A stretch of 64,000 nt of DNA, taken from the NCBI GenBank assembly GCA_964486045.1, contig CAZALK010000001.1, positions 392,242-456,241 on the forward strand, written 5' to 3'. This DNA is from an uncultured archaeon. Lineage in GTDB: Archaea > Asgardarchaeota > Lokiarchaeia > Sigyniarchaeales > SOKP01. Both the position numbers and the translations under genes were made by a program. This document shows positions 52,669 through 61,782 of this stretch, in pieces. Each line of letters starts with the position of its first letter. The stretch's first letter is position 1. A model generated the notes under the pieces. The model was not told the DNA's origin. It made no database searches and saw nothing but the letters and a program-made list of their open reading frames with translations.

Positions 52669-53171
52669 TTTTTTAAGAAAATAATGATTATAATGTTATA
52701 ATAATTCTTTAAAATGGATTATAATTATCCAAAATACCATAAAAGCACTTTCATCTTAACCAAATCTTAATTATAATTAATATATTTTATTTAATATATC
52801 TTTTGATTTATTTAATTCTATAAAATAATTTTACTTCTTTAAGTTAATTAATATAGATTAACTTCACTAATAAAAATTTAAAAAAGAATCTTTAAATTTA
52901 TAACCGCAATAAAACCTTCTATAAACATAAAAAATTTATTAAATTTCTAAAATCTTTGATCTCTTCTAATAGTTTCTTGCTTCAAAATAAATATTTAATA
53001 GAATGACTTTCAACTTGGTTCTCACACTTTTTAGTAAAAAATAAAGGAGTATTAATTCTTAAATTTATAATTATGATTTCAATAACTGAATATATATAAT
53101 ATTTATTTCTCATTAGTAAATCATTATAGTCCATAAATTTATATTGATGAATTTCTTATATAATCATAGAA

Positions 53172-53253: not shown

Positions 53254-54045
53254 TTACACTAATTTTTCCTGTATTATATCTAAGTAATCATTAGGATAAA
53301 TTTTCAATCCTTTTTGAAGACAATCGGGATATTTACGAAATTTATTTTTGATTAATTTGAAACAAATTTTATTTATTTCATCTAATTCCTCTGATCCTTC
53401 GCCGTAGCAAATATGTCTTAACCATCTTCTAACACAAAAAGCTACATTATCAGCTATTTGAATTCCCATGCTTTCCTTAGATTTTAGGAAATATATCTTT
53501 GGTACAATATTCCTTATTTTTATATAACTAGGATGTTCTTTTGAATAAATTGCTTTCTTTAATATATCTAATTTGTATTTATTCCATTCACCCTCATCAT
53601 CCATAAAAATAGTTAAAAAATCACATCGAGTTAATTCTTGAACAAACATTTGTAATCTTTCAATTAACATTAAATTAGCCCAAAATCTAGGATCTTTACC
53701 TTCTTCTAAATCCTTTTTAAACAGGGCTACAGAAATGATTGTAAGATTTAGACTTTCGATTATTTCAAGTCTTTTTTTATAGATCTCTAATCTTTGTTCA
53801 TAAGTTAATCGTTTAAATTCCTTTTTAATCTTATCTTTCTTTTTATTTTTTAATAACTCTTTGACATGGAATTCAACATCAGAATTTAATTTATATTTAA
53901 ACACTAATTGTTCCCTAAAATTAGACATTATAGTATCGATTTGTTGAAAATCCTCTTCTTTAATTAAAATTGCAGTCATTGAAAAAATCTTACTTTCATC
54001 ATTCATATGAGGAGATCCTGATTCATCTATGTATGCTAAGACCAT
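53254..54045 (-). CDS. DUF3800-family protein
   Basis: N-terminal YIDESGS and C-terminal SMGIQIADNVA. Confidence 0.85.
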   Translation of the reverse strand: MVLAYIDESGSPHMNDESKIFSMTAILIKEEDFQQIDTIMSNFREQLVFKYKLNSDVEFHVKELLKNKKKDKIKKEFKRLTYEQRLEIYKKRLEIIESLNLTIISVALFKKDLEEGKDPRFWANLMLIERLQMFVQELTRCDFLTIFMDDEGEWNKYKLDILKKAIYSKEHPSYIKIRNIVPKIYFLKSKESMGIQIADNVAFCVRRWLRHICYGEGSEELDEINKICFKLIKNKFRKYPDCLQKGLKIYPNDYLDIIQEKLV

Positions 54046-54377
54046 TTTTTAGTTTTACTTTTATTTTATTAGAATATCTATCTCTTTGAATTAAATAATT
54101 AATAAAAATATAAATTTATAAATTTAAATGATTTCATTTTAAGAATTTATTAAATTGGTCTAATTTTTGTATACTCTTTTTATTTTCACATATTGTTTCC
54201 TTTAACTTTTACCTATGTTTAACCCTTTTCCATATAAAAATTTAGTAGGTAAAATTTCACACTTAAAAGGGCTAAATAAAACACCTTAATAAATAGTAGT
54301 ATAATTAGAATTTTACCAGAAGTAAAAAAATAAATTTCATTAATTTGAAATTACTAGAACATTATTTTACATCTTTA

Positions 54378-54837
54378 TAATTTTTTTATTGGCGTAACAT
54401 CCTGACTTCTATCATTATGAGAATCCTTCCTATTTTTAAAATAGGATGGAAGAAGATAACACAGAGAAAGTGTCTAATCATTTCAATTTGAAATTGAAAT
54501 GAATTATTTATATGAGGATCCAATATTAGTTCAAATAAGATTGGATCTTTAACACAGAGAAAGTGTCTATACATAAAAGGCAAGTAAAAAAATTGCTTAA
54601 AAAAAAATTTAAAGCAATTTCAAATTAAATATAATTTAATTTCCACTCAAAACATTCACTCTATCTATATATTTAATACTATACCCTAAGAAAATGTAGC
54701 AGATGTGGTTGTTTATAATAAATAATTAATTAAATAAAAACAAATTAGGTTTAGGTAAAACCGTGTTTATAGTTTCTATAAACAAGGGTTCTTTGATTAC
54801 AATACTTCTTATATCTCCTCTTCCCATCTGGCAAATT
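54378..54837 (+). repeat. Structured non-coding element, copy L
   Basis: Blocks TAACATCCTGACTTC, AGAGAAAGTGTCTA (x2), a ~124-bp block at 54694-54817 and TTCCCATCTGGCAAATT are shared in inverted orientation with 58258-58665. Confidence 0.85.
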
Positions 54838-54923
54838 GATCAGTAAAAATATGTTAGTTTACTGTTATTATTAATATATTTATTTTACTTGCGATTTGCT
54901 TGATTTTCTCGGAGTCTGAAGAC

Positions 54924-55069
54924 GGGAAAATTTCCCTTCCAATTCTTTTTTTATGAGAATACTCTCTTTTCTCATGAGATTTGTGGGCATATTCTCTTTT
55001 TTAAGGGATAATCCCTTTTTTTAAACCTCTTCATACAATAAATCCCTTTATTTTAAGGGAATATCCCTT
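54924..55069. promoter_or_regulatory. Array of palindromic sites upstream of the parB cassette (parS/operator-like)
   Basis: AAGGGATAATCCCTT 55003-55017, AAGGGAATATCCCTT 55055-55069, GGGAAAATTTCCC 54924-54936, plus degenerate copies. Confidence 0.5.
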
Positions 55070-55100
55070 TTTCCTGCTAATTGGCTGAAACAAAATTAAT

Positions 55101-55208
55101 ATGGAAGGGGTTAGTTGGAAGGATATAGCATTAGGGTGGATACATAAACCTAAACCTAAACTTAAATCAAAACCAAAACCAAAATCAAAACCAAAAATCG
55201 AACAATAA
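55101..55208 (+). CDS. Small basic KP-repeat peptide (35 aa)
   Basis: MEGVSWKDIALGWIHKPKPKLKSKPKPKSKPKIEQ*. Confidence 0.4.
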   Translation: MEGVSWKDIALGWIHKPKPKLKSKPKPKSKPKIEQ

Positions 55209-55304
55209 TAATGTTTCTTTTTTTATAAAAAAAAAAACATTATTATTGATATTTTTTTAAAAATTTAAAAAATATAAAAATAAATAAAAAAAAGGTAATA
55301 AAAT

Positions 55305-55499
55305 ATGGAAAATAAAAATATTAAGATAGAAATGATTTCAATAGATGCTATAACTATTGATACAACCCAAGCAAGAAGGGGGGCATGGGAAGATGATGAA
55401 AAAGATAAAACATTAATAAATTCAATTAAAGGAATTGGATTAATTTATGATATTATTGTTAGACCTACCGATAGTGAGAAATATAATGGAAATTTTTAG
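55305..55499 (+). pseudogene. Truncated ParB N-terminal fragment
   Basis: ISIDAI...QAR...LINSIKGIGLIYDIIVRP; stops before the GxRR motif. Confidence 0.65.
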
Positions 55500-55549
55500 A
55501 AAAATTGATAATTAACTAAAATATAAAATAAACAAAAGGAGATAAAAAA

Positions 55550-56851
55550 ATGATAGAAAATATTCCTTTAGATAAATTAGTTGAAAATGATTATAACCCT
55601 AGAAAACATTTTGATGATGCTGCTATACTTAGATTATCAGAAAGTATTAATGAAATCGGTTTAGTGCAAGCATTAACTGTTAGAAAGATAGATGGAGAAA
55701 AATACGAAATTATTTGTGGTATGAGGCGATTCAAAGCAATAAATTTAATTCTTTTGGATTCTATTCCATGTTTAATAGTTGAAGCAACAGATCAACAAGC
55801 GAAATTACTTGCTTTAACTGAAAATCTCGAGAGGCAGAATTTAAACCCGATTGAAGAAGCCAGAGCATTTGTTAATATTTTAGATTGGAATCTTTTAAAT
55901 TTGAAAGATACAAAATATCAAAAAGGTATGGAAAAAAAAATAAAAGAATTAGGAAAAAATATAGGAATGAGTTCTGTAACTATTTATAATAGACTTAATT
56001 TGTTATATCTTCCAAAAGAAGTACAAGTTATGGTAGAAAATTATAATAGAGAAGCAAGAACAGGAATATCACAAAGTGCAGCATTAGAAATTACTAAATT
56101 AAAAGAAATTTCTAATGAAAAACAGCGATTCACGCATATGATTGATTTAGCAAAAACTTTTGATGGTGATATCAATAATCTTAAAGCACGAATAAAAAAT
56201 ATTTTAGAAAATATTAAAAAAACAGAAGATGTAAAAGAAAAAAAACTAGAACAATTAAGAGAATTATACGAACAAGCTATAAATGAATTAATAATAGTTT
56301 TCAATGAATCTATTGAAAAATTATTCCCTGAAGATATTGGAGAATACGAAAGTAATACAGAAATTGAAACTGCTTTAGCAAATAGCTATTTAGAATTAAC
56401 CAAATCTAAAGAAATAACTATGAAAGAAGATATTGAAAAAGATGAGGATGAAGAAAATATCAAATTTGCAATTAGTTTTTATGAGATGATTCATGATTTT
56501 TTAGAAAAATTTAAAAAAGACACACAATGGGAAAAATTACGAGAAAAACAAATTTCAATAGAAGATAAAATGGATAGATTATCGATTCATCTTCAATATG
56601 TAAAAGAGTCCCCGACTGATATTTGTGTTTATTGTGGAGCGGGTATAAATATTAATAAAATGGTAAAACAATTAAAAGAATATAAAGAAAAATTGATAGA
56701 AATAAATAATCACAAAAAGATTATAGATAAAGAAAAAAATAAAATTTCGACATGTGCAAGAAATTTAAAGAAAAAAATTGAATTTTATATTTCTAAAAAG
56801 GAATTTTACGAAGATTTAAAAAAACAAATGGAGGATGAGATTAGTATATGA
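55550..56851 (+). CDS. ParB/Spo0J-family protein with C-terminal coiled coil and CxxC
   Basis: YNPRKHF, IICGMRRFKA, ENLERQNLNPIEEA, HTH, then coiled coil with CVYCG. Confidence 0.85.
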   Translation: MIENIPLDKLVENDYNPRKHFDDAAILRLSESINEIGLVQALTVRKIDGEKYEIICGMRRFKAINLILLDSIPCLIVEATDQQAKLLALTENLERQNLNPIEEARAFVNILDWNLLNLKDTKYQKGMEKKIKELGKNIGMSSVTIYNRLNLLYLPKEVQVMVENYNREARTGISQSAALEITKLKEISNEKQRFTHMIDLAKTFDGDINNLKARIKNILENIKKTEDVKEKKLEQLRELYEQAINELIIVFNESIEKLFPEDIGEYESNTEIETALANSYLELTKSKEITMKEDIEKDEDEENIKFAISFYEMIHDFLEKFKKDTQWEKLREKQISIEDKMDRLSIHLQYVKESPTDICVYCGAGININKMVKQLKEYKEKLIEINNHKKIIDKEKNKISTCARNLKKKIEFYISKKEFYEDLKKQMEDEISI

Positions 56852-57543
56852 GTGAAGAAACAGTAGAAAGACGGGAATTTATAACTTTAATGTTAGATTA
56901 TGATGTTGGATTAGAAAAATTATTAAATACAAATTTAGAGAACGAAGGAATTGCAATATCTTCTTTTAATACTCAAGGAAGTAGTATTACTAGTGCAGAT
57001 GAAATAATTCCTGAAGGAGTTTTTATTATTAGAAGAACTATAGGAAATAAGTTTTATATGACTCGACAAACCATAAAATCAAGTAGAATTAATACATTAG
57101 ATATTATGAAAGAGGACTTTCAGAGAATTAGAAATAGAGCTTTACAAAATGATCCTACATTTGCAGGCAGAATATATTTTAATTCTATTAGCTTAGTAGA
57201 TATTGGGGATGAAACACGAATCCCTAGAATGGTAGTATTTACTAAAAATATACATTTAAAAGAAGAAGCACTTAGACGATTATTAATAGGAAAAAGTCAA
57301 ATGCCATTAGATGTTTTAGGAATATATAATTGTATTATAGACCCTGTCACAGGTGAATGGATAAAATTAAGAAGTCCCATAACACCTTTTCCTCAAAGAA
57401 TCGAAGCTTTAGATGTTTTGCATTATACTCCAAATGTTTTTAATTCTGATCTAACAAAAGCACGAAGATGTACAGGAGTAATGAAAGATGATAGAATTTT
57501 CGTAGCAGACAGTTGTGAAGAAATACCAAAAGATGTAATATAA
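56848..57543 (+). CDS. Hypothetical protein translationally coupled to ParB
   Basis: ATGA overlap, GGAGG RBS, 231 aa. Confidence 0.75.
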   Translation: MSEETVERREFITLMLDYDVGLEKLLNTNLENEGIAISSFNTQGSSITSADEIIPEGVFIIRRTIGNKFYMTRQTIKSSRINTLDIMKEDFQRIRNRALQNDPTFAGRIYFNSISLVDIGDETRIPRMVVFTKNIHLKEEALRRLLIGKSQMPLDVLGIYNCIIDPVTGEWIKLRSPITPFPQRIEALDVLHYTPNVFNSDLTKARRCTGVMKDDRIFVADSCEEIPKDVI

Positions 57544-57567
57544 CAATCGACTTTTTATAAAGAAATA

Positions 57568-57696
57568 TTACATTTCTTCTATTTCTGTTAAGAATTCTTC
57601 TGGTTCTTCCATTAATCCTTTTGCTATTTGACTTACAATCTTCTTTAAATTATATAATTCTTCTTCTATTTTATCTAATCGTTCTTCAATGGTTAT
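57568..57696 (-). CDS. Small acidic coiled-coil protein (ATA start)
   Basis: (M)TIEERLDKIEEELYNLKKIVSQIAKGLMEEPEEFLTEIEEM*; AAGGT upstream. Confidence 0.45.
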   Translation of the reverse strand: MTIEERLDKIEEELYNLKKIVSQIAKGLMEEPEEFLTEIEEM

Positions 57697-58257
57697 TTTT
57701 AAAACCTTTTAATTTATGTAATTTTACATTATATAAATATTCTTTAAAAATTTTTTATAATTACTTAACTCTTACACCACATTTAAGAGTTTCTCAATCT
57801 AAAATAAATATTTAAAGTAATCCATTTCTCTACTATTTTTATGAAAAAAAAATTGGAAATAAAGGGCACCTTTATTTCAACAAACATTGCAATTGCAATG
57901 TTTTTAGGGATTCCCTGAAAACCACCAATTCCCTATAAACTTTTGGACCAAAAGTTTCAACAAACAAAAAAATTTTTTGTTTCGACAAACACTAATAATT
58001 AGTGTTTTAACAAACTATAGAATTTCTCAATAATTTTAAGATATAAAGTTGAATCTATAGAGTTTCTCAATAGTTTCAAAAATTCAAATTAAAACTATTA
58101 AATATTTAATAGTTATTTTGAAAAAAAATTAGGATGGAGTGAGGGTATATCGAAATTTAACCCCAAAAATATATTCGCTGTTATTGGACATTTAAAATTG
58201 GATAGTAAAGATACTGATGCACAGAGGAAAATTATATCTGATTTAAAAAGGGTTGTA

Positions 58258-58665
58258 GAGATATAAGAAGTATTGTAATCAAAGAACCCTTGTTTGCAGA
58301 AACTGCATACAAGGTTTTACCCAAACCTAATTTGTTTTTATTAGATTAAATATTTAATATAAACTACCACATTTACTACATTAATTTGCCAGATGGGAAT
58401 AAGATCTTAAAATCCATGGTTTCTTTAGTACTAAAGAAATCCAGGTTTCAGAAAACCTTGGTAACTTTAGTACTAAAGTTACTAAGGTTTTGGAACATAT
58501 ATGAAGACAATTAATTTAGACACTTTCTCTTCTATTCCTATGAAGATACCATCCTTAAAACTTCTCTATATTGTCTTTTAAAATCCTTAGTAATTTTACT
58601 AGTAAAAAGACCAATATTTTATAAATTATGATGGAAGTCAGGATGTTATGGAATTAAAAAAATTA
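58258..58665 (-). repeat. Structured non-coding element, copy R (inverted)
   Basis: 58258-58295 is the exact reverse complement of 54780-54817; 58383-58399 matches 54821-54837; other blocks near 58517-58530 and 58628-58648. Confidence 0.85.
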
Positions 58666-59161
58666 ATTTCGTACTTTTTAAAGAGGAAAAGAATGGATTA
58701 AAATTTTTAATCCATCCTTTTTTTTTAAGAAAAAAACGCCTTTAAAAAGTTTAAAGGCGTTCTTTGTTTTTGTGTAAATTTCGTTTTAAATTTTTTCTTA
58801 AACGAAACTTTCATCATTTCAACCATTTAATTTCAAATTAATTGGTGTTGACAGTAAAAAATATGCTATAAATTTAGGAATTGATTTTGCGAATTATGTA
58901 AATTTAAATAGTTATTTGAGATGTATATAAATTTATATACAACTTTTTTTAAAAAATATAACACCCATGGGTGGTATTTTCCATCCTAAAAATAAATAAT
59001 TAAATATCTTCCCTATTTGTTATTACTTTTATCTATATTTTATCCAATAAGATATAAAATCCTTTTCACACATTTTTTTATATATAAGCATTATTCTACT
59101 TCACCTATTATATTATAGACTGAGAGGATTATTAGTTAGGTGTGTGAAGTGTGGGATTTTT

Positions 59162-59216
59162 GGAAACTATAATAAAACTATAAGGAAACTATATAGAAAC
59201 TATATTAAAACTATAA
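59162..59216 (+). repeat. Five 11-bp tandem repeats (nnAAACTATAw), iteron-like
   Basis: ggaaactataa taaaactataa ggaaactatat agaaactatat taaaactataa; followed by an AT-rich tract, next to the helicase gene. Confidence 0.75.
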
Positions 59217-59496
59217 TTAATATTTCACTATTTCGCTTATTATCTTCTTATTTTAATTTAGATGATCAATAAAAAATTAATTTTATTTAAAAATTTATAT
59301 ATGATCATCAAAATAAAAAAATAATATATAATACATAAAAAATATATACATATTTATTTTTAGATCATATATATTTATATTCTCAAAAATAGTTTTAAAA
59401 ATTGATAGGTAAAATTAATTATATTAATATCTTATATATGTGAGATATTAAAAGAAGGATTATAGTTTTAATATAGTAGGTTAGAGGTGGTTGTTA

Positions 59497-61782
59497 TTAA
59501 TATTTAAAATCTCCTTCCATAGCTTTCTTTTCTTCTTCGGTTAAATCTATACTTATACCAGAATCATCACTTGATAAAAATTCTCTTTTTATAAATATTA
59601 CTGCTCTTGATTTATCTATAGTTCTATAAGTATGTTCTATCCAATGTTTATCTTTTGCTGGTAATGCTTCTCTTAACTCTCCTGCTAACCCTTGAAGACT
59701 TCTTTTCCCTTCCCCATTTAATTTTAATAAAATATTAAAATCTCCTTTATTCTCTTGCGTAAAATAATAATCTCCTTTTTTATTCATTATAAGTTTATGA
59801 TTAATGTATCTTTTATCTTTTATTCTTGAAACTCTAGTAGTTTTTGTTTCTTCTTCTTCTTTTCCTTCCTTTTTCTTTATAATAATTTCCTTTTCACTAT
59901 ATATGATTTCTTCTTCATAATCTCTCGCTCTTCTACAATAATAATAAAATATTTGTAATATTGTTTTAGTTAAATTTTCTCTTGAACTCATTAATTTATT
60001 TGTTATATTATCTTTTTCTAAAATAATATCAAATGCCTTTTCAAATAGTTTAATACCAAACATAATAATCTGAAATATTTGTATTAATCGAGGATAACTA
60101 CCTAATAATTTTATTTCATCTTTATATTCCTCTTTAATAGATTCAAGTTGTTTTTCAACATCATTATTAGTCCAATCTTTAATTATATCATAAATTAAGC
60201 TAAAAAGTTTTATTTTTTCTAAAATTCTTTCTGCTTCTAACCATTTTGGATCAAGTGATAATATATCTGATGTATTAAAGAATAAATTAATAGATTTAGA
60301 ATTATAAGCAAGGTCAACAAATTCTTTAATAATTTCATTTGTATCTATACCAAGTGGTGCAGACATAAGACTTGATTGAGCTATATGAACTCCGTCTTTC
60401 TTCATCCTGTCTCTATAAAAATCATTAGTTGCCATTTCTTTTAAAATAGATATAGTATACTCATTTACTTTTTTAACTTCTTCAAAATGAGCGGGAAAAG
60501 TAGAACTAGTTATAATACCTGTTATTCGAGACGGTGAACTAAAATCACCAGAAGAAAATGGTTTATCATATATTTTATAGAATAATGTAGTAAAGAAGTC
60601 AAGAATTGCTGATTTACCTGTTTCTCTTTCACCAATTAAATTAAGTTGAGGAAATATTTTTAATATTTTTATAAAAGCCTTCCTAAAGGGTGCAGCCATT
60701 GACCAACCAATAATGATTGCCAGATTTATTGGTTTCATTTTTGTTAATTTAATAAATTTTTTCATCCATTTTCTTATTTTTAATTTTTGAGGCTTTGTAT
60801 ATTTTGCATATATTTTTTTAGCATTTTTATATGCCATAATTTGATAATGATTTGTTAATAGTATAGCCCATCCTTTTTCTTCTTCTGTTATAGGTAAAAC
60901 ACACCCATTATCAAATCCTATTGCAAGTTTAGCTGTTCTTGGTTCAAAAATGTCATCGGCACTATTAATTACCTTTTTCATTATATCTAATCCAAATCCT
61001 CCTTTATATATATCATAATTTAAAATAGAAAGTATCTCTTTCTTGCTTTGTGTATAATGAAAACGATTATTATATTTGAATGTAAATAACATTTTATCAT
61101 TTTTTTCATCATAAACTTTATACAACATTTCTAATTTTCCATTTAGAATTTCTGTTATACTTTCACTGAGTATACCACCAATTTCAATTTTCTTTAAATG
61201 ATATATTTTTTTATCAGTTATTATAATTGAATTTCCATCATAAGGTATAGTATCTATTTCAATTCCTTCTAATGTTTCTACTGATGCTGATGATGATGGT
61301 ATTATTGCTGTTGTTCTTGGTGTTTTTAGTGTTTTTTTTATTTCTTTTTCTTTATATTTTTCTCTCTTTCTTATTCTTATCCAATCTGCTTCAAAAGTAT
61401 CACCCACATATTCAAAATAATCATCTTTTAAATCTATAACTCTTTGGATAATAAAGGTTTTAACTGTTTTTTTAAAAGATGGATTAGCCTTAAGAGTTTC
61501 TGTTATAGCTGTATCAATATCATCAAATGATTCTATTGCATCTATAAAAGATTTTATTTTTTTAATATCTACTTTTTCATCGGGATCAATTTTAAACTTT
61601 GTACTACCAATTGTTAATTTCCTTGGTTCATCAGATGCAAGCTTAACATTTTTCTTCTTAGGAGCAGGTGTAGATAGTCTTTCTTCAACTGTTTTACCTT
61701 TAGAAGATTCTCGTCTACTTTCTAAAAATTCTTTGTCTTCAGCTGTTAAACCTTTATCTTCAGTCTTTTTTTCCTCTATCAT
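59497..61782 (-). CDS. Mobile-element P-loop NTPase, probable replicative helicase (DUF927/Cch-like)
   Basis: IIGWSMAAPF, Walker A GERETGKS, Walker B PAHFEE, MGE context. Confidence 0.65.
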   Translation of the reverse strand: MIEEKKTEDKGLTAEDKEFLESRRESSKGKTVEERLSTPAPKKKNVKLASDEPRKLTIGSTKFKIDPDEKVDIKKIKSFIDAIESFDDIDTAITETLKANPSFKKTVKTFIIQRVIDLKDDYFEYVGDTFEADWIRIRKREKYKEKEIKKTLKTPRTTAIIPSSSASVETLEGIEIDTIPYDGNSIIITDKKIYHLKKIEIGGILSESITEILNGKLEMLYKVYDEKNDKMLFTFKYNNRFHYTQSKKEILSILNYDIYKGGFGLDIMKKVINSADDIFEPRTAKLAIGFDNGCVLPITEEEKGWAILLTNHYQIMAYKNAKKIYAKYTKPQKLKIRKWMKKFIKLTKMKPINLAIIIGWSMAAPFRKAFIKILKIFPQLNLIGERETGKSAILDFFTTLFYKIYDKPFSSGDFSSPSRITGIITSSTFPAHFEEVKKVNEYTISILKEMATNDFYRDRMKKDGVHIAQSSLMSAPLGIDTNEIIKEFVDLAYNSKSINLFFNTSDILSLDPKWLEAERILEKIKLFSLIYDIIKDWTNNDVEKQLESIKEEYKDEIKLLGSYPRLIQIFQIIMFGIKLFEKAFDIILEKDNITNKLMSSRENLTKTILQIFYYYCRRARDYEEEIIYSEKEIIIKKKEGKEEEETKTTRVSRIKDKRYINHKLIMNKKGDYYFTQENKGDFNILLKLNGEGKRSLQGLAGELREALPAKDKHWIEHTYRTIDKSRAVIFIKREFLSSDDSGISIDLTEEEKKAMEGDFKY

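What the first reader, a model, noticed from the sequence alone, without database searches (positions are those of the whole stretch)
54378..58665. Inverted pair of ~400-460 bp structured elements with covarying stems enclosing a ParB cassette
Seen: copy L (54378-54837, +) and copy R (58665-58258, -) share blocks TAACATCCTGACTTC, AGAGAAAGTGTCTA (duplicated in L), a ~124-bp block and TTCCCATCTGGCAAATT. The intervals differ between copies but are filled with hairpins. One stem has two compensatory pairs (TATAG-TTT-CTATA versus TGCAG-TTT-CTGCA). CATCCT/AGGATG pairing is possible in both. The 17-bp block lies after the long block in L but before it in R. Between the copies are a palindrome array, a KP peptide, a ParB fragment, ParB-coiled-coil and an unknown gene. 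Inference: selection on folding, i.e. an undescribed large ncRNA pair or folded ssDNA recombination ends defining a mobile or invertible partition module. This is the best candidate for a novel system in the window.
Basis: partly seen in the sequence, partly recalled or inferred. Interest (0 to 1): 0.85.

Follow-up and report, generated by a model that had tools for sequence, protein, structure and literature searches.

The report
Inverted palindrome-rich arms around ParB cassette
Two diverged, inverted copies of a gene-less, palindrome-packed DNA module bracket a ParB gene cassette inside a 27-kb mobile element integrated in a Lokiarchaeial chromosome; they are real, unique to this element and probably DNA-level control or maintenance sites, not RNA genes.

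Summary
Copy L (54378-54840) and copy R (58258-58665, inverted) share a 125-nt block (89%), a 38-41-nt outer block, a 17-nt block whose position is swapped, and a 14-nt word. One stem differs by two compensatory pairs.

The pair lies in a 27.3-kb element inserted in the pyrD-nop5 spacer, which is empty in about 25 congeners. It sits in a variable cargo segment next to the likely replication origin. A third non-coding site, 7.6 kb further on, shares three of the short motifs.

These three sites are the only clusters of perfect palindromes in the 5.18-Mb genome (51-fold enrichment). Most of the palindromes run through their centre and show no wobble strand bias. That points to DNA-level symmetry, not RNA folding.

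No Rfam family, IS-like feature, dif-like core or homologue was found in relatives, phage, plasmid, viral or metagenome collections. Homologous ParB cassettes in two other genomes lack the arms.

The arms enclose the only genes of at least 60 codons that run against the rest of the element. Inversion is therefore plausible but untested.

Another first-stage note on the same DNA flagged the third site.

Verdict: a real orphan cis-element set, function inferred, moderately interesting.

The parts
52689..52706 (+). Left attachment-site core of the 27.3-kb integrated element. Its partner lies at window-equivalent 80015-80032, beyond the window.
   Evidence: An 18-nt direct repeat (17/18) sits at both junctions. 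The uninterrupted pyrD-nop5 spacer of congeners contains this sequence once.
53254..54045 (-). DUF3800 gene, cargo of the element, left neighbour of arm L.
   Evidence: Pfam PF12686, E 9.5e-17. No homologue was found in the cousin element by tblastn; an unrelated 325-aa gene occupies that position there.
54378..54840 (+). Arm L. It comprises the outer block 54378-54418, the 14-nt word at 54463 and 54556 (93-nt tandem), four perfect palindromes, the 125-nt block 54693-54817 and the 17-nt block 54821-54837.
54920..55075 (.). Palindrome array upstream of the ParB genes, a candidate operator or ParB loading site.
   Evidence: two of the genome's four copies of one 15-nt palindrome type lie here, as does the genome's only copy of a second palindrome type.
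55305..55499 (+). 64-aa fragment of a different ParB N-terminal domain, probably the remnant of a replaced parB.
   Evidence: Pfam ParB_N, E 1.1e-6. It lies outside the stretch shared with the G101 cassette.
55550..56851 (+). ParB (ParB_N plus HTH_ParB) with a long C-terminal helical part containing a CxxC.
   Evidence: Pfam. It is 71% identical to a Lokiarchaeia ParB.
56848..57543 (+). 231-aa protein of unknown family, always paired with this ParB type.
   Evidence: It was found next to the ParB homologue in G101 (61%) and G065 (25%). There was no hit in Pfam, PHROGs, NCBIfam or the Atlas.
57856..58114 (.). Run of perfect palindromes. Four direct copies of a 10-nt word, the last three about 25 nt apart, overlap the left arms of the palindromes they precede. 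Two 40-nt direct repeats follow.
58258..58665 (-). Arm R. It comprises the 125-nt block 58258-58382, the 17-nt block 58383-58399, three copies of a 12-nt palindrome core (58424, 58466, 58595), the 14-nt word at 58517 and the outer block 58625-58665.
59162..59477 (.). Likely replication origin of the element. Five 11-nt iterons (59162-59216) and an inverted arm (59436-59477) flank AT-rich DNA, just downstream of the 761-aa gene.
   Evidence: The iterons are conserved in the cousin element of G008.
59497..61782 (-). 761-aa backbone protein, possibly a primase/helicase-type replication protein.
   Evidence: 58% identical homologue in the cousin element. It resembles DUF927 clusters by language-model features only (a lead).

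Best explanation
L and R are two diverged, inverted copies of one composite non-coding DNA module. The module belongs to an accessory, plasmid-like segment of a 27.3-kb element integrated between pyrD and nop5 of a Lokiarchaeial chromosome. With a third site 7.6 kb to the right, they form three palindrome islands that share element-specific words: a 14-nt word, a 13-nt quasi-palindrome and a 12-nt palindrome core.

I infer that they work at the DNA level. They would be arrays of binding or structure-forming sites for proteins of the element, such as its small AbrB-like and ribbon-helix-helix-like proteins, ParB or the replication machinery. They would organise the maintenance region: Rep-like gene, iteron origin, ParB cassette.

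Shown: the repeats, their uniqueness, the palindrome enrichment and its through-centre character, the integrated element and its empty site, the variable-cargo position, and the opposite orientation of the enclosed genes.

Inferred: protein binding, a role in maintenance or regulation, and that the inverted layout arose from, or allows, a flip of the enclosed 3.4 kb.
For: - The repeat pair is real and single.
- The element is integrated. About 25 congeners have pyrD next to nop5, about 78 nt apart, and att cores sit at both junctions.
- All four genome copies of the 14-nt word, all three copies of the 13-nt motif and 4 of 12 copies of the 12-nt palindrome core lie in L, R or the third site.
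- The three sites are the only palindrome clusters in the genome: 23 palindromes in 4.36 kb against 0.104 per kb elsewhere.
- 16 of 23 palindromes have a loop of 0-1 nt, against 25% genome-wide, P about 1e-5.
- Stem extensions show no wobble strand bias.
- Iterons next to R are conserved in the cousin element, beside a gene with DUF927-like features.
- Small AbrB-like and RHH-like ORFs flank the third site (identified by eye, not by a family search).
Against: - No binding or expression data exist.
- The palindromes belong to many different sequence families, so no single sequence-specific protein explains them.
- The hairpin conserved between L and R has a 3-nt non-symmetric loop, as a folded strand would.
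- The compensated changes fit RNA or single-stranded DNA folding as well as they fit symmetric protein sites.
- They could also come from template switching within palindromes without any selection.
- No related element carries the motifs, so conservation cannot be measured.
Confidence: 0.45

Rival explanations
1. Invertible segment. The arms are substrates for recombination, homologous or by the element's tyrosine integrase, that flips the 3.4-kb ParB cassette. This would switch its orientation relative to the origin and the neighbouring promoters, as in the yeast 2-micron plasmid or the phage Mu G segment.
For: The ParB fragment, ParB and the 231-aa gene are the only genes of at least 60 codons on the plus strand of the element, and they lie exactly between the arms. 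In the cousin element all cargo runs the same way as the backbone. The inner 38 nt of the long block and the 17-nt block are 100% identical while the rest is 84% identical. The chance of no difference in 38 nt is 0.011, as gene conversion at a crossover region would give.
Against: No recombinase is adjacent; the only integrase lies about 20 kb away. The perfect stretch has no core-type structure: the best 11-nt arms match 7/11, as in 436 of 500 shuffles. Similarity to the att core is at chance level. The arms are only 89% identical and mostly not alignable. No reads were available to show both orientations.
Confidence: 0.2
2. Neutral relic. An old inverted duplication of non-coding DNA is decaying. 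The perfect palindromes and their compensated changes are produced by template switching (quasi-palindrome correction) during replication, not by selection.
For: The two compensated pairs in the L/R stem are adjacent and could be one event. Palindromes are symmetric through the centre, as a copying mechanism would make them. No homologue is conserved anywhere.
Against: Blocks of 85-100% identity are separated by unalignable DNA, which uniform neutral decay does not give. Short words are kept exactly at three sites and nowhere else in 5.18 Mb. Non-coding DNA of 1.1-1.9 kb persists at three places in a compact element.
Confidence: 0.15
3. A pair of structured non-coding RNAs of about 350-450 nt, transcribed inward from a TATA-like stretch in the outer block. 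The 125-nt block would be a conserved 3' domain and the middle a set of variable hairpins.
For: The outer block holds a T/A-rich stretch about 25 nt before the conserved 15-nt word. Folding z-scores are -2.7 to -5.0. All 14 differences in the long block are unpaired or keep pairing in the consensus fold, including two G-U/A-U or C-G/U-G changes on the L-plus strand. The random-substitution test gives P about 0.01.
Against: No Rfam match above noise. A covariance model found nothing credible in 134 family genomes; its one hit lies inside an ORF. Most stems are perfect Watson-Crick palindromes without loops and show no wobble strand bias. Both strands fold about equally well. With two sequences the consensus fold is fitted to the data.
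Confidence: 0.1
4. Ends of a non-autonomous mobile cassette, with long subterminal inverted repeats or folded single-strand ends, that inserted into the cargo hotspot of the element.
For: The cousin element's homology breaks at 54298 and resumes at about 59160, so a 4.86-kb block containing L, the cassette and R replaces 2.0 kb of other cargo. A further 15-nt inverted word pair lies outside the arms at 54339 / 58828.
Against: No transposase or second copy exists in the genome or in about 160 relatives. No target-site duplication is visible and the ends are not sharp. The breakpoints lie 40-80 nt and 320-500 nt outside the arms. The ParB cassette occurs elsewhere without the arms.
Confidence: 0.08

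Closest known systems
Repeat- and palindrome-rich non-coding maintenance regions (origin plus partition) of plasmids and archaeal integrated elements, including iteron origins downstream of primase-helicase genes
   Same: Long gene-less stretches sit next to a Rep-like gene and a ParB gene. They hold iterons with 11-nt spacing, many dyad symmetries and element-specific words repeated at several sites.
   Different: There are three separate islands with many unrelated perfect palindromes. Two of the islands are large inverted copies of each other. No origin or centromere activity has been shown.
Inverted repeats of invertible segments (yeast 2-micron FRT repeats; phage Mu G / P1 C segments; fim-type switches)
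   Same: Inverted repeats bracket a gene block that runs against the rest of the replicon, on an element that also carries partition functions.
   Different: No recombinase lies next to the arms and no recognisable core site was found. The arms are 89% identical at best and mosaic. Both orientations have not been observed.
Centromere arrays next to parB (F sopC, P1 parS, N15 scattered sites)
   Same: Palindromic sites lie upstream and downstream of a ParB gene, some at several places on the element.
   Different: The motifs are absent near the 71%-identical ParB of G101, whose helix-turn-helix segment is nearly the same. No ParA is present.
Single-strand origins (ssoA type) of rolling-circle plasmids
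   Same: Short conserved blocks are separated by hairpins that keep structure but not sequence, and the regions are a few hundred nt long.
   Different: No HUH Rep was detected. Palindromes are symmetric through the centre, and the arrangement is an inverted pair.
Conserved boundary (linker) sequences between exchangeable modules of mosaic phage genomes
   Same: Conserved non-coding blocks flank a cassette that differs between related elements.
   Different: Here the two flanks resemble each other in inverted orientation, and no second genome with the same flanks is known.

Membership tests
Known RNA family (Rfam 15) | Match at or above a family's gathering score | tested here: not met
   Only tRNAs reach the gathering score in the window. 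Around the arms the best E-value matches score 28-29 bits against cut-offs of 49-90.
Structured ncRNA (generic) | Homologues with significant covariation supporting one strand's fold | tested here: inconclusive
   Only 2-3 copies exist. Compensated pairs are 2 (L/R) and 4 (R/third site), with nominal P of 0.01-0.02. The shuffle control has no power. No wobble strand bias was seen.
Insertion sequence / MITE ends | Multiple copies in the genome or in relatives | tested here: not met
   One pair only in 5.18 Mb. None in 60 relatives by BLAST, in 134 family genomes by covariance model, or in phage and plasmid records.
Insertion sequence / MITE ends | Sharp terminal inverted repeats with a target-site duplication, and a transposase for autonomous copies | tested here: not met
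   Similarity fades outward with indels. No direct repeat is visible at the flanks. No transposase domain was found in the enclosed genes.
Xer/dif-like or core-type tyrosine-recombinase site | Two imperfect inverted arms of about 11 bp around a 6-8-bp spacer (PMC2958812) | tested here: not met
   The best arms in the perfectly conserved inner stretch match 7/11. This is equalled or beaten in 436/500 (L) and 378/500 (R) shuffles.
Site-specific invertible segment | Inverted repeats flanking the segment | tested here: met
Site-specific invertible segment | Dedicated recombinase encoded in or next to the segment | tested here: not met
   The enclosed and adjacent genes have no recombinase domain. 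The only integrase is at window-equivalent 78655-79953.
Site-specific invertible segment | Both orientations present in a population | not testable with these tools
   No reads were available. The protein cluster of this ParB has a single contig.
ParB centromere (parS) | Palindromic site that travels with the ParB type and is bound by it | tested here: inconclusive
   Motifs are absent from the 16-kb contig with the 71% ParB and from the G065 locus. The G101 contig ends 125 nt after the cassette. Binding is not testable here.
Integrated archaeal mobile element (tyrosine integrase type) | Integrase, duplicated att core, and an empty site in relatives | tested here: met
   Phage_integrase, E 2.2e-18. 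An 18-nt core lies at both junctions. pyrD is adjacent to nop5 in about 25 congeners. GC is 24-25% against 31% for the genome.

The most novel reading that the evidence does not exclude
The three palindrome islands are a DNA signal read by structure and not by sequence (cruciforms or hairpins on unwound DNA). In this reading the two inverted arms are the switch points of a flip-flop that reorients the ParB cassette relative to the origin of an Asgard mobile element. This would be a maintenance or regulatory device with no described counterpart in archaea.
Probability: 0.12. Interest if true: 0.75.

Novelty: new variant of a known kind. Interest (0 to 1): 0.42.

Why it matters
Mobile elements of Asgard archaea are barely charted and their cis-acting DNA is unknown. 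This element offers a sharply delimited set of candidate control sites: three islands, unique in the genome, that share exact words and sit next to a likely origin and a ParB cassette without ParA. If the arms bind element proteins or allow inversion, they would give a first handle on replication, partition or cargo switching in Lokiarchaeial elements. They would also be useful parts for building genetic tools for these organisms. If they are only decaying duplicates, the case shows how template switching can mimic covariation.

Tried and rejected
- Known RNA family: rejected.
- Spare inverted copy of the element's own att site, as seen by this scan in other islands: similarity is at chance level, 8 matches against 4.2 expected.
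- DGR-type template/variable repeat: by eye, the differences in the alignment are of mixed base types and not restricted to adenines, and no reverse-transcriptase domain was found among the proteins searched.
- Coding remnant: peptides from all frames of the three non-coding regions have no paralogue in the genome.
- Arms as part of the ParB cassette: rejected, because the G101 and G065 cassettes lack them.
- Homologue hunts that found nothing real: BLAST in 60 relatives; exact-word scans of viral, genome and metagenome collections (the six metagenome and four viral hits share nothing else); a covariance model; relatives of the Mini-A-like gene and of the 761-aa gene.
- Structure prediction of the 370-aa protein gave a poor model, pLDDT 50, so no fold search was run.
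The 35-kb public contig with the 71% ParB could therefore not be read.
Full report
**Observation**

The inverted pair is real.
- The repeat finder and BLAST give a 125-nt arm pair at 54693-54817 / 58258-58382 (88.8%, E 1e-42).
- The outer pair is 54378-54418 / 58625-58665 (85-87%).
- A 17-nt block is perfectly identical at 54821-54837 / 58383-58399.
- A 14-nt word occurs twice in L and once in R.
- The 17-nt block follows the long block in L and precedes it in R when R is read in the same sense.
- The stem inside the long block differs by two adjacent compensatory pairs, plus one broken pair in R.
- Between the blocks the two arms cannot be aligned, but both are full of hairpins. Folding z-scores are -2.7 to -5.0 on all four strands.
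- The pair occurs once in the 5.18-Mb assembly.

**Context: an integrated element**

GC falls from about 31% to 24-25% between window 53,200 and window-equivalent 79,700. A tyrosine integrase sits at the right end, beside nop5 and fibrillarin. pyrD/pyrK lie at the left end.

In about 25 of 29 congeneric genomes pyrD and nop5 are divergent neighbours about 78 nt apart. An 18-nt core of that spacer is duplicated at 52689-52706 and at window-equivalent 80015-80032. The element is therefore about 27.3 kb, inserted in the pyrD-nop5 spacer.

Apart from the AbrB-like ORF of about 57 codons beside the third site, every credible gene of the element runs on the minus strand. The exceptions are the ParB fragment, ParB and the 231-aa gene, and these lie exactly between the arms.

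**A cousin element**

G008 carries a related element at the same nop5 site, in the opposite orientation. Its integrase is 65% identical and its 761-aa homologue 58%.

Its DNA homology to this element stops at 54298 and resumes at about 59160. It resumes in an 11-nt iteron array just downstream of the 761-aa gene.

Between these points G008 has 2.0 kb with three unrelated genes, all co-directional, and no inverted repeat.

The 761-aa protein resembles DUF927 primase/helicase-type clusters by language-model features only. With the conserved iterons and an inverted arm around AT-rich DNA, this suggests an origin at 59,160-59,480. L, the cassette and R thus form a variable cargo block next to the likely origin.

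**The cassette**

ParB plus the 231-aa protein recur as a pair in G101 (71% and 61% protein identity) and in G065 (29% and 25%). The DNA match to G101 is 78% over 55530-57540, the two genes only.

Neither locus has the arms, any of the motifs, or flanking inverted repeats. The G101 contig ends 125 nt after the cassette, so its right flank is unknown.

The helix-turn-helix segments of the two ParBs are nearly the same. The arms therefore belong to this element, not to the cassette.

**A third site and the palindrome islands**

At window-equivalent 66233-66551 (L006:2233-2552) a third non-coding site shares three things with the arms:
- the 14-nt word;
- a 75-nt module of R (77% identical);
- a perfect-palindrome version of the 13-nt core of the 17-nt block.

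All four genome copies of the word lie in these three sites. So do all three copies of the 13-nt motif and 4 of 12 copies of a 12-nt palindrome core. R and the third site differ by four compensated pairs in one hairpin.

Counting perfect palindromes (arms of at least 9 nt, loop of at most 8 nt) gives these results:
- 560 are in the whole genome.
- 23 lie in 4.36 kb of these three non-coding regions, a 51-fold enrichment.
- These regions are the only clusters in the assembly.
- Related elements have none.

**DNA or RNA?**

- 16 of the 23 palindromes have a loop of 0-1 nt, so they are symmetric through the centre. Elsewhere in the genome loop lengths of 0-8 nt are about equally common (25% at 0-1 nt). 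The binomial P is about 1e-5.
- A folded RNA does not need a self-complementary loop. A symmetric protein site, a cruciform or a copy-back mutational process does.
- Extending the stems gives 3 G.T, 2 A.C and 8 other mismatches, so no strand is favoured.
- No Rfam family matches.
- A covariance model of the long block finds nothing credible in 134 genomes of the family. Its one hit lies inside an ORF.
- Random-substitution tests give nominal P of 0.01-0.02 for the compensated pairs. The two L/R pairs are adjacent and could be one template-switch event. With two sequences the shuffle control is powerless.

**Recombination sites?**

The inner 38 nt of the long block are identical, and the chance of no difference is 0.011. 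This stretch has no 11-6-11 type dyad: the best arms match 7/11, as in most shuffles (definition from PMC2958812). Similarity to the element's att core is at chance level. No recombinase lies nearby.

**Searches elsewhere**

All of these were negative or chance-level:
- BLAST in 60 relatives;
- exact-word scans of viral, genome and metagenome collections;
- blastn against phage and plasmid records;
- relatives found through the 761-aa and 370-aa proteins.

**Reading**

Most likely (0.45) the arms are DNA-level cis-acting modules of the element's accessory maintenance segment. They would be binding or structure-forming arrays near the origin and ParB, present as an old inverted duplication.

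Inversion of the enclosed block is plausible (0.2) because of the gene orientation and the perfectly identical inner patches, but it is untested. A neutral relic shaped by template switching (0.15), an ncRNA pair (0.1) and ends of a mobile cassette (0.08) remain possible.

ParB-like genes are common and variable in Asgard elements (PMC11529989, PMC8813620). No paper among the four read described such arms.

Noticed in passing
window 52669-52706 and L006:15954-16070 (window-equivalent 79954-80070): A 27.3-kb element is inserted in the 78-nt pyrD-nop5 promoter spacer. G008 carries a related element at the same nop5 site in the opposite orientation, so this spacer is a recurrent integration site in the genus.
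   Followed up: yes
L006:2854-3966 (minus strand): A 370-aa protein hits PHROG 6247 'DNA topoisomerase' (E 2.5e-38). Among its four homologues it keeps an invariant Glu, a DxDPxG motif and an Arg four residues before a Tyr. This fits the virus-borne Mini-A branch of Topo VI-A/Spo11-like proteins (PMC7671362). Pfam, NCBIfam and PDB sequence searches found nothing, and the AlphaFold model was poor (pLDDT 50).
   Followed up: partly
window 59162-59216 and 59436-59477: Five 11-nt iterons and an inverted arm around AT-rich DNA lie just downstream of the 761-aa gene. They are conserved in the G008 cousin and are a likely replication origin. The 761-aa protein resembles DUF927 primase/helicase-type proteins by language-model features only.
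   Followed up: partly
window 57876-58010: A 10-nt word occurs four times in direct orientation (57876, 57956, 57981, 58006); the last three are 25 nt apart. Each copy overlaps the left arm of a perfect palindrome whose outer 4 bp are constant and whose core differs. All four copies are among only 44 in the genome.
   Followed up: partly
window 55305-55499: A 64-aa fragment of a different ParB N-terminal domain sits just upstream of the intact ParB and outside the stretch shared with G101. It looks like the stump of an earlier parB that was replaced by recombination.
   Followed up: partly
L006:1903-2076 (plus) and L006:2615-2779 (minus): Two small ORFs flank the third palindrome island. By eye, one looks AbrB/SpoVT-like and the other ribbon-helix-helix-like. 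They are candidate binders of the shared palindromes. No family search was run on them.
   Followed up: no
window 58102-58266 (plus strand): An open frame of 54 codons without a start codon ends at a stop inside the inner edge of arm R. No paralogue exists in the genome. It is a possible remnant of a lost gene whose downstream region would be the 125-nt block.
   Followed up: partly
L078:3301-5701 (G008:C43): The cargo of the cousin element at the equivalent position includes, by eye, a TIR-like 325-aa protein and three small genes. Together with DUF3800 in this element, that suggests a defence or accessory cargo hotspot next to the origin.
   Followed up: no
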